Source: Candidatus Hydrogenedentota bacterium (GTDB lineage Bacteria; Hydrogenedentota; Hydrogenedentia; Hydrogenedentales; SLHB01). Taken from it: DNA of 64,000 bases. The number at the start of each line of letters is the position of its first letter. Position 1 is the first letter of the stretch. The stretch covers positions 256,001 through 320,000 of the forward strand of contig CAVUWV010000018.1 in the NCBI GenBank assembly GCA_963745075.1. Direction: 5' to 3'. Under the pieces are notes generated by a model. That model saw only the letters and a program-made list of their open reading frames with translations. It ran no database searches and was not told where the DNA came from. Shown here one piece after another: positions 1 through 31,394 of the stretch. Position numbers and translations under genes: made by a program.

Positions 1-22
1 CGCAATGCGAATCGTTGCGAAG

Positions 23-60
23 AATTCCCCCTTTGAAGGGGGATCAAGGGGGATGTTCTT
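23..60. repeat. REP-like palindromic repeat (CCCCCTTTGAAGGGGG family), copy 1
   Basis: aattccccctttgaagggggatcaagggggatgttctt; near-identical copies at 37531-37568 (inverted) and 37657-37691. Confidence 0.85.
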
Positions 61-18060: not shown

Positions 18061-18116
18061 GTACTCGTACTCCCGGGTTCCCGTAGTTCCTGAAATTCAG
18101 ATCAAAACATGCGCAG

Positions 18117-19344
18117 TTACTCCGCGCTTTCTTCCTGGTTGGTCGGTACTTCCTCTGCGGAATCGGCATCCGCCGACTCCGGCGTATCCAATTCCTCCGA
18201 CAGTTTCTCCGGCGCGTCGCCGGCGCTCGTTGGATCGGCCTCTTCGCTCGCGGTGTCCGCGCCCTCGACAGGTGCATCGGCCGCTGCCTGTGGCGGTCCG
18301 CCGGCCAATTCCACATCGCTCTTGATGTCGATATTCCACCCCATGAGCTTAGACGCGAGCCGGGCGTTCTGGCCCCGCTTGCCAATCGCCAGCGACAACT
18401 GATCGTGCGGAACGATCACAAGAATGGACTTTGCCGACTCGTCGACGGTAATGTCCAGAATGTCGGCCGGGTTCAAGGCATTTCCGCACAGCTCGACGGG
18501 GTCGTCACTCCACCGCACAATATCGATTTTCTCGCCGCAGAGTTCTTCCACGACGGCGCGTACGCGCGACCCTTTCATGCCGACGCAGGCGCCAACGGCG
18601 TCCACGTTCGGGTCGTTCGACAACACGGCAATCTTCGTTCGGCTTCCGGGCTCGCGTGCGATTCCGCGTATGACGATCGTGCCGTCGTAGATTTCCGGAA
18701 CCTCTCAGATCGAACAGCGCCCGGACCAGTTCCGGCGACGTGCGGGACAGGACGATCTGTGGTCCTCGCGGGCTCTTCTCGACTTCGAGCAAATGCGCGC
18801 GAATGCGGTCGCCGGGCTTGAAGTTCTCGCGCGGAGACTGCTCGCGGATGGGCAGAATGGCTTCCGCCCGCCCCACGGACACAATCAGGTTCCCGTGACT
18901 ACCGCGCTTCACGACGCCGGTCACGAGTTCGCCCTCGCGTTTTTTGAATTCGTCGTAGACGTTTTCGCGCTCGGCATCCTTGATCTTCTGGATAATGACT
19001 TGTTTGGCGGTCTGTGCGGCGATGCGGCCGAAATCCTTGGGCTCGGTCGGCAGTTTGAGCATGTCCCCGACCTGGGCTTCGGGATTCAGCGTTTTGGCTT
19101 CGTCGAGTGCCATCTCTTTGCTCTTGTCCGCGACTTCCTCAACTACCGTTCGAATCTCGAATACTTGAAACGCCAAGGTGCGGGGATCCATGTCGACCGT
19201 GATCGTGGCTGTAACCGGAAAGCTTTTTCGTGCGGCGGTTTCGATGGCAGTCCGGATAGCCTCCAGTAACGTATTGCGATCGATGCTCTTTTCGGCCTGA
19301 AGCTGCTGCAAGATAACTTGCAAATTCGGGTCCTTTGGCTCCAC
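18117..19344 (-). CDS. nusA: Transcription elongation factor NusA, one-base frameshift near 18705
   Basis: FGRIAAQTAKQVIIQKI, S1 domain, LFDL/EVPEI junction, GACVGMKGSRV, LSLAIGKRGQNARLA. Confidence 0.95.
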
Positions 19345-24438: not shown

Positions 24439-24467
24439 TTGACAAACCCACGTCCCGAAGGTAGGTT
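24439..24467 (+). promoter_or_regulatory. Putative sigma70 promoter of the leader/DUF1559 unit
   Basis: TTGACA-N17-TAGGTT. Confidence 0.6.
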
Positions 24468-24564: not shown

Positions 24565-24903
24565 ATGAATCGAAAATGGTTAAGACTCGGCGCGTGCGCC
24601 GCGCTGGTGCTTTTCGCGTGTGCGGAATTGCACACGGTGGTGCCGTTTGTCTTTTCCGAATTCCATCACGATAGCCCCGAAAACGCGCCATTCGACGGAT
24701 CGACCGGCAATGACTCCCGTCAGCCCTGTGCGCTGTGCCTGCTAATCCACTCGGCAACACTCGTCCCTTCTGCGGATGCTGTTCAAGGTCCGCCTGATGT
24801 CACCCCGGAACAACCCGTTCCAGAAGACAACGCCATCGTCTGGTGCGATACCTCCTGGAGACCCGAGTCCCGCCGGGGTCCTCCCTCCTTACACACTTCC
24901 TAA
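24565..24903 (+). CDS. DUF2946/CruR-like exported leader protein with CxxC and C-terminal RGPP motif
   Basis: 112 aa: basic/hydrophobic signal-like N-terminus, His residues, CALC (24727-24738), 45-aa Pro-rich spacer, RGPP (24874-24885), stop 5 codons later. Confidence 0.75.
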   Translation: MNRKWLRLGACAALVLFACAELHTVVPFVFSEFHHDSPENAPFDGSTGNDSRQPCALCLLIHSATLVPSADAVQGPPDVTPEQPVPEDNAIVWCDTSWRPESRRGPPSLHTS

Positions 24904-25002
24904 TCGCAGAACTCCCCGTGTGAATCGTCGAGCGTAAAGACGTTTATCGCTTACGCACGACGCCGTGTTGTGACGTGTGTAAACCAATAAGGAGTTATCC
25001 CT

Positions 25003-25908
25003 ATGCGTACCAAGGGTTTTACATTGATCGAACTGTTGGTGGTCATCGCCATCATTGGCATTCTCGCGGCAATCCTGCTCCCGGCGCTCGCACGGGCAAG
25101 GGAAGCAGCCCGTCGCGCGAGCTGCCAGAACAATCTGAAGCAAATGGGTCTCGTGTTGAAGATGTACAGCAACGAGAGCGCGGGGGAGAAATACCCTCCG
25201 ATGAAGTCCGTCGATTGCAACGGAAATCCGGCGCCGGGCGCCACGATATTCCGCGTGGAGTCCATGGATCCCGAGTATCTGACGGACCTGAATGTGCTGG
25301 TGTGCCCGAGTGCGTCTTCGGGCTCGACCGCCCTGGAACTTTGGGACCAAGGCGAAACAACGTCGACCCTGTGGGGCGGGAATGGCGCCATCGTTCAGCC
25401 CTTTGCGAACAACGGAATCGTTGAGCCGTGTGAAGTCTACGAACACCCTTATATCTACCTGGGCTGGGTGATTGAGAAACGGTTGTCCGCCGACCAGACC
25501 GCGCTGGACGCGTTGGCGGTCAACGTGGACGATCTGTTCGCCGCATTGAACACCACGGCCGCGGATGCGGAACAGGTCGCCGACAGCGACTGGGACGTCG
25601 TGGACGGAACCGGAAACGGCGGCGGCGACAAGATCAATCGGATGCGCGAGGGTATCGAGCGTTTCCTGATCACGGATATCAACAATCCGGCGGGAAGCGC
25701 GATGAGCCAAACCGAACTTCCGGTCATGTGGGACGAGATTTCCGGTGACAACGCAACACACTTCAACCACGTTCCCGGCGGCTGCAATGTGTTGTACATG
25801 GACGGCCACGTCAAGTTCTTGAAGTACGACGGCCCTTTCGGTTCGGACTTTCCGGTTAACGGCGGCGGCCTCGTGTTCCACGAGATGAGTCACCTCCTGT
25901 ACCCGTAA
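25003..25908 (+). CDS. DUF1559 prepilin-type N-terminal cleavage/methylation protein with H-X9-DG motif
   Basis: [73 protein letters not shown]. Confidence 0.93.
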
Positions 25909-29509: not shown

Positions 29510-29953
29510 ATGAAGATTGCAGTCGGCAGCGACCATGCCGGATTTGAAGGACCTCCCCCCCACTATAAACCGGCGATCGTAGACCACGTGAAAGCGCTGG
29601 GACACGAAGTCCTGGATTGCGGCACAAACGGTCCGGAATCGGTGGATTATCCGGATTTTGCGGGCCGCGTCTGCAACGCGATTCAATCGGGTGAAGCCGA
29701 ACGAGGCGTGCTGATTTGCGGCACCGGCATCGGGATCTGCATGGCCGCCAACCGGTACAAGGGCATTCGCGGCGCCCCCTGCGCGACGCCGGAAATGGCG
29801 CGCTTGAGCCGAACCCACAACAATTCCAACGTTATCTGCGTCGGCACACGGATTCTCTCGCTGGAAACGTGCCTCCAACTTATCGACATCTGGTTGGACA
29901 CGCCCTTCAGCGAGGGAGAACGGCACATCCGACGCATCCAAAAGATGGGCTGA
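29510..29953 (+). CDS. rpiB: Ribose 5-phosphate isomerase B
   Basis: [32 protein letters not shown]. Confidence 0.95.
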
Positions 29954-30000
29954 CCGCTGGGATTTCCGCACGATTCAGTCCACGCAGGAGTATTTTATCC

Positions 30001-31394
30001 ATGAGCGTGTTGACTCCACGACAAATCGTAGACGAACTCGACAAGTACATCATCGGACAACACAGTGCCAAGCGAAAGGTTGCCGTGGCGTTGCGCAACC
30101 GCTGGCGCAGGCAACAGTTATCCGACGAGATGCGCGACGAAGTCATGCCGAAGAACATCATCATGATCGGTCCGACCGGCGTTGGAAAGACGGAGATTGC
30201 ACGCCGTCTCGCCAAGCTCGCCGACGCGCCCTTCGTAAAGGTGGAAGCCTCCAAGTTCACGGAAGTGGGTTACGTGGGCCGGGACTGCGAGTCGATGATT
30301 CGAGAACTGACCGAGGTTGCCCTGTCCATGGTGCGCGGCGAGATGGAAAAGGAACTCGAAGAACCCGCCAAGCGAGCCGCAGAGAACCGGCTTCTGGATC
30401 TTCTGCTCCCCCCCAGTCCGCGCAACGCGGACCCGAACGGGTGTACCGGCCCGGCGATCCGAGAGCCGGCGATGAAGCTCCCGCACCGACGCAAGAAGAC
30501 CAAGGTGAGGCACGGACTCGCGAAATCCTGCGTAAGAAGCTCGAAGCCGGGGATTTGGACGATCGGCAGATCGAGGTCGACGTTCGGGAGGCCGGAAAAA
30601 CGTCCATGATGCAGGTATTCTCGAACTCGGGCCTGGAAGAAATGGGCGTCAACATTCAGGAAATGTTCGGGCGGCTCATGCCTCAAAAGACGAAGCGCCG
30701 CAAGACAACGGTCGCCGAGGCACGCAAACTGCTTGAAGCGGAAGAACTCGACAACCTCATCGACATGGATGTGGTCGTCAAGCGGGCGGTGGAGCGCACG
30801 GAAAACTCGGGCATCGTGTTCCTGGACGAGATCGACAAGATCGCGGGCCGGGGTTCCGGCGGCCACGGCCCGGATGTTTCGCGGGAAGGCGTGCAGCGCG
30901 ACATCCTGCCCATCGTCGAAGGCAGCACGGTCACAACCAAGTACGGGCCGGTGAAGACGGACCATATCCTGTTCATTGCGGCCGGCGCGTTTCATATGAC
31001 CAAGGTGTCCGATCTGATTCCCGAACTGCAGGGCCGCTTCCCGATTCGCGTGGAACTCGACAGTCTCTTGGCGGGCGATTTCGTCCGCATTCTGCGCGAG
31101 CCGAAGAACTCGCTGGTCAAACAATACGAAGCCATGCTGGCCACGGAAGGCATCACCCTCGATTTTACGGACGACGCCGTGGAAGCGATCGCCCGCATCG
31201 CGGAGCAGGCGAATCTCGAAACGGAGAATATCGGCGCGCGCCGCTTGCACACCATCATGGAGTATCTCCTCGAGGAGCTCTCTTTTGAAGCCCCCGAGTC
31301 GCAGGACGGCCCGGTGCGGCTCGATGCAAAGCTGGTTGAAGATCGTTTGAAAGAAATCATCGAGAATCGCGACCTCAGCAAATACATCATATGA
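30001..31394 (+). CDS. hslU: ATP-dependent protease ATPase subunit HslU, one-base frameshift near 30435
   Basis: [42 protein letters not shown]; second frame [44 protein letters not shown]. Confidence 0.95.

What the first reader, a model, noticed from the sequence alone, without database searches (positions are those of the whole stretch)
24885..24996. Anti-Shine-Dalgarno helix positioned under the predicted stalled ribosome
Seen: CTCCTTA (24885-24891, end of the last Pro codon plus the next two codons) is the exact complement of TAAGGAG (24988-24994), the SD of the DUF1559 gene. TTACACAC (24889-24896) complements GTGTGTAA (24975-24982), so a 12-bp helix with an 8-nt bulge can form. An inner hairpin TCGT..GCGTAA/TTACGC-ACGA (24925-24960) shortens the loop, and AACTCC (24910-24915) is a second possible partner for GGAGTT. 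Inference: a ribosome arrested at RGPP would cover the 5' arm and free the SD, as in secM-secA and cutF-cutO. This is support for the leader model independent of the protein motifs.
Basis: partly seen in the sequence, partly recalled or inferred. Interest (0 to 1): 0.82.

Follow-up and report, generated by a model that had tools for sequence, protein, structure and literature searches.

The report
RNA lock under a stalling ribosome
An mRNA helix hides the start signal of a pilin-like gene. Its blocking arm sits, across dozens of related bacterial genera, where a ribosome stalled on an upstream copper-sensor-like peptide would cover it: a known kind of switch, on an unstudied and probably metal-binding target.

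Summary
The letters are as described. The 5' arm pairs with the SD region (core helix P 0.98). It belongs to a DUF2946/CruR-like leader (CxxC, 45 aa, RGPP) upstream of a DUF1559 pilin-like gene.

Across 45 genera, the 15-18 nt after the Pro-Pro codons pair with their own downstream ribosome-binding site far better than with other loci's (z -7.4; windows away from the peak no lower than -1.8). The arm is pinned to RxPP, not to the stop codon. Masking the stall footprint lowers SD opening cost from 8.7 to 5.8 kcal/mol on average.

Against: in this locus masking frees little (6.4 to 5.3; no change in a shorter window), because AACUCC takes over the SD. A Rho-type C-rich tract is also present.

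The SD lock is real family-wide; release here, the metal and the direction of control are inferred. The leader-DUF1559 pairing is in a 2025 survey's data (PMC12992588) and was found earlier by this scan on other DNA. I did not find the RxPP-anchored co-variation in print. New variant of a known kind.

The parts
24439..24467 (+). Candidate sigma70-type promoter TTGACA-N17-TAGGTT
   Evidence: Read by eye; not called by the consensus scan (0 found). TTGACA occurs in 8 of 22 homologous upstream stretches. Inferred.
24565..24903 (+). Leader ORF, 112 aa, DUF2946/CruR-like: hydrophobic N-terminal segment, His, CxxC, RGPP, 5-aa tail
   Evidence: Pfam DUF2946 16.2 bits, below the cut-off of 23.7; 28 of 35 aligned leaders match DUF2946 at E<=0.1, best 1.2e-6; C55, C58, R104, P106, P107 invariant
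24727..24738 (+). CxxC (CALC), 45 residues before the Arg of RGPP
   Evidence: spacing 42-47 in 129 leaders, 43-45 in 122 (the search rule allowed 38-52)
24847..24856 (+). Additional upstream anti-SD in the leader codons D-T-S-W
   Evidence: SD partner P 0.86 in fold 24840-25030, 0.26 in 24814-25027; no family-wide signal at this offset
24874..24885 (+). RGPP arrest-type motif; predicted P site 24880-82, A site 24883-85; its Pro codons CCT CCC also form an anti-SD
   Evidence: Stall register by analogy to CruR toeprinting (PMC12992588) and RQH peptides (PMC10987492); pairing; codon bias
24885..24900 (+). 5' arm of the SD-locking helix (tail codons S-L-H-T-S), under or at the edge of the predicted stalled ribosome
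   Evidence: family-wide cognate signal at the same offset
24840..24917 (+). C-rich, G-poor tract (C 0.42, G 0.21), possible Rho utilisation site
   Evidence: rho present in the genome; function inferred
24910..24915 (+). Back-up anti-SD AACTCC, outside the stall footprint, inside the footprint of a ribosome at the stop codon
   Evidence: P 0.88-0.95 once 24865-24895 is masked; 15 of 45 genera have a back-up of P>0.3 in R+21..+50
24917..24962 (+). Inner hairpin domain with two competing forms; shortens the loop
24975..24996 (+). 3' arm (GTGTGTAA 24975-82) and SD (TAAGGAG 24988-94) of the target gene
25003..25908 (+). Target gene, 301 aa: prepilin N-methyl motif, DUF1559, H-X9-DG domain; clade-specific C72/C143, H253, H293, H297
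   Evidence: model pLDDT 91, weak pilin-like matches only

Best explanation
A stall-ON translational switch. By default the mRNA just after the leader's RGPP codons pairs with the ribosome-binding region of the DUF1559 gene about 100 nt downstream, the intergenic sequence folding into inner hairpins, and the gene is off (helix: shown by folding and co-variation). A ribosome arrested with Pro106 in the P site covers the arm to about 24895, breaks the helix and lets the target be translated (position matches; arrest and release inferred). In this locus a weaker 6-bp back-up helix remains, so release is partial or also needs the ribosome to reach the stop codon. The CxxC 45 residues upstream has CruR geometry. 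So I favour metal binding (Cu most likely, about 55%) pulling the chain and relieving arrest, making the His-rich pilin-like protein a product of metal shortage (about 65% for this direction; inferred).
For: Cognate against non-cognate duplex energy, one locus per genus (n=45): R+12..27 z -7.4, 0 of 5000 permutations; 15-nt windows that start at R-45..R+3 or R+24..R+63 give -1.8 to +1.9; the partner peaks at ATG-20..-5, z -7.9. 20 random one-per-genus draws: z -4.9 to -8.2. The first 36 loci gave z -10.1, with a null CDS control. No-leader pilin-like genes (70 of 78 used): z -2.3 to +0.7. Arm position against tail length: slope -0.7 nt/codon (CI -1.6 to 0.3), where stop-anchoring predicts 3; short- and long-tail groups both peak at R+15. 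Genus-mean SD opening cost: free 8.7, upstream-only mask 8.3, stall mask 5.8 kcal/mol; lowered by 2 or more in 57 of 108 loci against 11 of 108 for the upstream mask. CCT at the first Pro: 19 of 45 against 7 of 95 in target genes. RGPP gave the most robust arrest in the contexts tested, and CruR arrests at PP (PMC12992588).
Against: This locus: opening cost 6.4 to 5.3, 5.76 to 5.75 in a shorter window; an upstream-only mask gave 4.4, lower than the stall mask. Three same-genus loci change by -0.9, +1.5 and -2.9, and their conserved helix covers only half of the SD core. 51 of 108 loci fall by less than 2 kcal/mol; only 60 of 108 show a strong arm in the ensemble. A terminating-ribosome mask opens as much (5.5). 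RNAalifold on MAFFT alignments did not recover the arm helix: no long-range helix in 7 sequences; in 8 others only a Gly-Pro-Pro-codon:SD helix with 1 of 8 pairs co-varying. Genera are related, so z values overstate. No experiment shows arrest, metal binding or expression.
Confidence: 0.66

Rival explanations
1. CruR-type output: the stalled ribosome mainly masks a C-rich rut site, and control is by Rho-dependent termination. The helix is real but secondary: it keeps the SD shut so that transcription and translation uncouple.
For: rho present; C>1.5xG over R-30..R+48 in 42 of 45 genera; post-stop 25 nt have C-G>0.1 in 38 of 45 against 155 of 606 ordinary genes; CruR has the same CxxC-45-RAPP geometry and uses Rho (PMC9426467); weak SD release in this locus.
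Against: Rho needs no sequence-specific pairing, yet the arm co-varies with its own RBS. Part of the C richness is forced by Pro codons and by anti-SD composition. The two outputs can act together.
Confidence: 0.17
2. Translational coupling: any ribosome that finishes the leader and dwells at the stop codon opens the SD (covering the arm and the back-up), so completed translation turns the target on and arrest at RGPP would not.
For: In this locus only masks reaching 24912-15 open the SD well (2.3-2.6 kcal/mol); family-wide the terminating mask opens as much as the stall mask.
Against: Arm position tracks RxPP, not the stop: stop-anchored peaks differ between tail classes (-6 against -12) while R-anchored peaks coincide; the post-stop zone R+27..+50 has no cognate signal.
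Confidence: 0.09
3. No regulation by structure: chance complementarity of a pyrimidine-rich tail with a GGAG-type SD.
For: CTCC occurs 5 times in 24565-25002; 19% of synonymous recodings pair as well; the SD is paired in nearly any fold here.
Against: Non-cognate controls keep composition and SD yet pair 2.5 kcal/mol worse (-8.7 against -11.2), only in one 20-nt window; no such peak before no-leader genes.
Confidence: 0.05
4. Same RNA switch, but the input is secretion or disulfide stress (SecM-like monitoring, or oxidation of CxxC), not a metal.
For: Hydrophobic N-terminal segment; the target is an exported protein with a conserved Cys pair (85 of 85); one leader precedes a catalase.
Against: Fixed CxxC-RxPP spacing as in CruR; His-rich tails on the targets; other targets include cation-efflux and outer-membrane efflux proteins. 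This rival concerns the input only and overlaps with the best explanation.
Confidence: 0.15

Closest known systems
CruR (Bp2923)-bfrG, Bordetella pertussis, DUF2946 (PMC9426467: search listing, passages, text search of 3 supplements; PMC12992588: passages on CruR arrest)
   Same: uORF with CxxC 45 residues before a C-terminal RAPP-type motif, short tail, long intergenic region, C>G bubble; stall = ON
   Different: CruR output is Rho-dependent termination (0 hits for Shine, RBS, ribosome binding in its main text); target is a TonB-dependent transporter. Here an RxPP-anchored SD-locking helix is evident and the target is a DUF1559 pilin-like protein.
CutF-cutO, Rhodobacter capsulatus (PMC9973294: passages, sections 10-12, text search of 3 supplements; bioRxiv 10.1101/2025.02.05.636593: abstract, introduction, passages)
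   Same: DUF2946 leader whose stalling melts a stem-loop that shields the downstream SD
   Different: CutF has CxxxC and a PPP motif, is EF-P sensitive and stalls when Cu is present; its stem-loop is described as intergenic. Here CxxC/RGPP, and the arm begins in the leader's last codons.
SecM-secA and RQH/RAPP monitoring substrates (PMC10987492: passages)
   Same: Arrest at the third motif residue; the stalled ribosome disrupts an SD-sequestering stem; shown with stem mutants for a uDF_RQH leader
   Different: Those precede sec/yidC genes and sense translocation force; no CxxC sensor is described in the passages seen
RAPP/RGPP uORF survey (PMC12992588: section 13, passages, supplementary file 8 rows; file 8 is cut as stored, file 10 not searched)
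   Same: Lists DUF1559 genes as enriched downstream of RAPP uORFs (112 against 68 AAPP, 6.5-fold); 2 of 29 list rows seen are annotated DUF2946
   Different: Main text has 0 hits for DUF1559, pilin, stem-loop, Shine, hairpin, secondary structure, anti-SD and names the downstream mechanism as an open question

Membership tests
DUF2946 / CruR-CutF leaders | Pfam PF11162 score above the gathering cut-off (23.7 bits) | tested here: not met
   16.2 bits, E 0.018; 28 of 35 relatives match at E<=0.1, best 1.2e-6: divergent relative, not a formal member
DUF2946 / CruR-CutF leaders | CxxC and C-terminal RAPP-like motif at conserved spacing (45 in CruR) | tested here: met
   45 here; 43-45 in 122 of 129
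DUF2946 / CruR-CutF leaders | Small ORF, PP within the last 15 residues, same-strand downstream gene | tested here: met
   112 aa, tail 5, intergenic 99 nt
DUF2946 / CruR-CutF leaders | N-terminal Sec signal peptide | tested here: inconclusive
   Basic start plus hydrophobic stretch seen in the alignment; no predictor was run
DUF2946 / CruR-CutF leaders | Copper-dependent control of the downstream gene | not testable with these tools
   Needs reporter assays
Stall-opened SD switches (secM-secA, cutF-cutO) | Helix that sequesters the downstream SD | tested here: met
   family co-variation
Stall-opened SD switches (secM-secA, cutF-cutO) | 5' arm within reach of the stalled ribosome | tested here: met
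   Arm R+12..+30, anchored to RxPP; footprint edge near R+21 is recalled, not measured
Stall-opened SD switches (secM-secA, cutF-cutO) | SD becomes accessible when the arm is covered | tested here: inconclusive
   Family mean yes; this locus little or no change
Stall-opened SD switches (secM-secA, cutF-cutO) | Demonstrated ribosome arrest | not testable with these tools
   Needs toeprinting or PURE translation
CruR-type Rho attenuator | C>G bubble over the leader end, and Rho in the genome | tested here: met
CruR-type Rho attenuator | Rho-dependent termination in the intergenic region | not testable with these tools
   Needs in vitro transcription or bicyclomycin

The most novel reading that the evidence does not exclude
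A phylum-wide metal-starvation switch that joins a CruR-type sensor to a double lock (SD helix in fixed register to RxPP plus a Rho site) and turns on a His-rich pilin-like metal-capture protein. In some genomes two leaders stand in series like a two-input gate. DUF1559 paralogues would then be ligand-specific capture subunits of a pilus-type uptake device, this clade for a transition metal.
Probability: 0.22. Interest if true: 0.78.

Novelty: new variant of a known kind. Interest (0 to 1): 0.47.

Why it matters
Many RAPP/RGPP leaders have been catalogued, and the 2025 survey names how arrest controls the downstream gene as an open question. Here sequence evidence from 45 genera points to SD sequestration by an arm fixed 12-30 nt after the Arg codon. 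That register can serve as a screen to sort other leader classes into SD-type and Rho-type, and it tells where to mutate. It also ties a His-rich clade of the large, uncharacterised DUF1559 family to metal sensing. The mechanism class itself is established (SecM, CutF), which caps the interest.

Tried and rejected
RNAalifold on plain MAFFT alignments (7 and 8 hand-picked loci): intergenic regions are too divergent, and the arm helix was not recovered; replaced by the alignment-free cognate/non-cognate test. Promoter and terminator scan: no promoter called, no terminator between leader and target. Shared operator upstream of the leaders: a 6-mer count over 22 of 45 upstream stretches showed only GC-rich words and TTGACA. 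RNA data: no RNA holder listed. Structure of the target: no Foldseek match at E<=0.001; best VIA Z 4.2 (rmsd 4.0, 122 aligned) to a type IV pilin; a metal site could not be measured on the model. Non-pilin targets (12 of 18 tested): z -2.3 at R+12, weak. The upstream anti-SD at 24847-56 is rejected as a family feature. Two pair indices for the inner hairpin were mis-chosen and redone. Literature searches: 0 papers hold both DUF1559 and copper; none of the listed titles or abstract starts reports RxPP-anchored co-variation; subscription papers are not covered. Supplements of PMC9973294 and PMC9426467 held as text gave 0 hits for DUF1559/N_methyl terms; the neighbour table of PMC9973294 may not be among them, and its Fig. 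7 legend has a 'PILIN' class. bioRxiv supplements were not seen.

Full report
1. Observation. CTCCTTA:TAAGGAG and TTACACAC:GTGTGTAA share TTA, so they are alternative registers; the 12-bp helix with an 8-nt bulge is within 1 kcal/mol of the MFE (-39.4 against -40.4). In the free ensemble the core helix has P 0.98, and the SD is paired to CUCC at 24885-88 (0.60) or to CUCC in the Pro codons at 24881-84 (0.32). A third partner, 24847-56, takes 0.26-0.86 in longer folds. The inner hairpin GCGUAA:UUACGC is favoured (0.76), with a different closing stem than stated. Alone, the locus is only suggestive: 7 of 5000 arm shuffles pair as well, but so do 1145 of 5000 shuffles upstream of a fixed SD and 3983 of 20736 synonymous recodings.

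2. Context. The arm is the tail of a 112-aa ORF (24565-24903) with CALC 45 residues before RGPP and a sub-threshold DUF2946 match. The gene 99 nt downstream is a prepilin-type DUF1559/H-X9-DG protein. Of the 30 best target homologues fetched from 135 genomes of the phylum, 27 carry such a leader; two of the other three lie at contig ends. A profile of 35 leaders matched 97 of 135 genomes; I fetched 100 further regions. A rule (CxxC, 38-52 aa, RxPP, stop within 14) found 129 distinct leaders in 91 genomes and 48 genera; 30 of 186 loci gave none. 111 precede pilin-like genes, a share biased by how the profile was built. Motifs: RGPP 57, RAPP 52, RDPP 10, RSPP 8, other 2. Most near-full-length relatives among named records are labelled Ca. 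Hydrogenedentota, so that is the probable phylum (inference).

3. Test of conservation. Intergenic regions cannot be aligned well: RNAalifold found no long-range helix in one hand-picked set and only a Gly-Pro-Pro-codon:SD helix in another. I therefore compared each leader's arm with its own RBS region (ATG-45..-1) and with those of other loci. Two of the 111 loci were dropped for uncertain starts. With one locus per genus (n=45), 15-nt windows starting at R+9, +12, +15 and +18 (R = first base of the Arg codon, 24874 here) gave z -5.8, -7.4, -7.3 and -5.7, each 0 of 5000 permutations. The flanking windows at R+6 and R+21 gave -2.5 and -2.2, and all others from R-45 to R+63 lay between -1.8 and +1.9. 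The partner peaks at ATG-20..-5 (z -7.9). Twenty random one-per-genus draws gave -4.9 to -8.2; this locus ranks fourth of 45 partners for its own arm. Pilin-like genes without a leader (70 of 78 used) show no peak below -2.3. The helices use different letters in each genus; the best duplex covers 3-4 of the 4 SD core bases in 36 of 45, a count with no null. Genera are related, so the z values overstate, though shared ancestry should strengthen non-cognate pairs too.

4. Register. Tails vary from 1 to 8 codons. Among the 60 of 108 loci with a strong arm, its position does not move with tail length (slope -0.7 nt/codon, CI -1.6 to 0.3; 3 expected if tied to the stop). Short-tail (24 genera) and long-tail (20 genera) sets both peak at R+15, while stop-anchored peaks differ. 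CruR and RQH peptides arrest with the first Pro in the P site (PMC12992588; PMC10987492). A ribosome there covers about R-9 to R+21 (recalled footprint), that is the first half or more of the arm. The first Pro codon is CCT in 19 of 45 genera, against 7 of 95 comparable Pro codons in the targets and 44 of 262 elsewhere in the leaders. This makes CCUCC a second anti-SD, although slow decoding could also explain it. So the RNA evidence is mostly, not wholly, independent of the motif.

5. Does masking open the SD? On average yes: the genus-mean cost of opening ATG-18..-5 is 8.7 kcal/mol free, 8.3 with only upstream sequence masked, 5.8 with the mask to R+21 and 5.5 with a terminating ribosome. 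33 of 45 genera fall by more than 0.5 against the upstream mask; 57 of 108 loci fall by 2 or more (one long locus was left out). The masks are not length-matched. In this locus no, or barely: 6.4 free, 5.3 stalled, 4.4 upstream mask, 2.3 terminating; 5.76 against 5.75 in a shorter window, and 3.9 if AACUCC is also kept open. AACUCC captures the SD with P 0.88-0.95, and only masks reaching 24912-15 open it well. Three same-genus loci are also unswitched in silico, two others switch by 5-6.5, and 15 of 45 genera have some back-up. A 6-bp helix closing a multiloop is within model error and may be labile, but release here is not shown.

6. Rho. The genome has rho. The leader end is C-rich and G-poor here (0.42/0.21) and in 42 of 45 genera, and the 25 nt after the stop are skewed in 38 of 45 against 155 of 606 ordinary genes. 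This is the CruR output (PMC9426467). It does not explain cognate pairing but may act with it.

7. Input and target. The 45-residue CxxC-RxPP spacing is that of CruR, where Cu relieves arrest; CutF (CxxxC, PPP) does the reverse. In a quick tree (careful search unfinished), 85 of 98 leader-linked targets fall in one supported branch with 1 of 19 leaderless paralogues of this genome. That clade has C72 and C143 in 85 of 85, H293 in 81, H253 in 78, H297 in 68, often followed by His-rich tails; the leaderless paralogues mostly lack these. The model is confident (pLDDT 91) but has only weak pilin-like matches. Other targets are an outer-membrane efflux protein, a cation-efflux protein, an ABC ATPase, a catalase, or a second leader. 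I read this as a metal-shortage switch, Cu first, but efflux targets would fit metal excess; metal and direction are inferred.

8. What is known. Stall-opened SD helices are established for SecM, CutF and an RQH leader (passages). The leader-DUF1559 pairing is in the source data of PMC12992588 (112 RAPP against 68 AAPP), a lead that came from earlier scan notes, and this scan has reported the pairing on other DNA at least 8 times. The main text of that paper has no mRNA-structure terms. My searches found no report of the fixed-register co-variation; papers outside the library and unseen supplements may hold one.

9. Verdict. Observation confirmed; interpretation supported for the family and unproven for this copy. 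It works like secM-secA and cutF-cutO with a CruR-like sensor; the leader is a divergent DUF2946 relative below the Pfam cut-off. New variant of a known kind; interest 0.47.

Noticed in passing
L186 (G000:C8:69792-70058, +): Second leader in the same genome (CxxC, 44 aa, RDPP) 256 nt before another DUF1559 gene with a His/Met tail; stall mask lowers SD opening from 9.1 to 5.8 kcal/mol.
   Followed up: partly
L115, L118, L134, L147 (possibly L148): Two CxxC/RxPP leaders in tandem before one DUF1559 gene; the second leader of L118 and L134 matches DUF2946 weakly. Possible cascade or two-input control.
   Followed up: partly
L116, L094, L146, L099: The same leader type precedes a catalase, an outer-membrane efflux protein, a cation-efflux/SPFH fusion and an ABC ATPase.
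   Followed up: partly
L014, L085, L089: Leader-target units stand close together or back to back: divergent leaders in L014 and L085; in L089 the profile hit two leader-like ORFs about 1.5 kb apart, of which the rule kept one.
   Followed up: no
G000:C11 near 46241 (+): A DUF1559 paralogue inside the leader-linked clade has no recognisable leader in 900 nt upstream and lacks the His tail beyond H293: possible joint loss.
   Followed up: partly
L192, L223, L260: RGPP-stop ORFs before DUF1559 genes outside the studied set: a Cys-free one (L192) and CxxC/His-rich ones in planctomycete records.
   Followed up: no
L047: Intergenic region of 319 nt with a long repeated hairpin insert, unlike the usual 90-130 nt.
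   Followed up: no
window 18097-19344 (-): The nusA-like gene appears split over two overlapping frames (ORFs 18505-19344 and 18117-18626): frameshift or assembly error. The label is recalled from the sequence; no family search was run.
   Followed up: no
window 29950-31394 (+): The hslU-like gene appears split over two frames (ORFs 29716-30609 and 30441-31394). The label is recalled; no family search was run.
   Followed up: no
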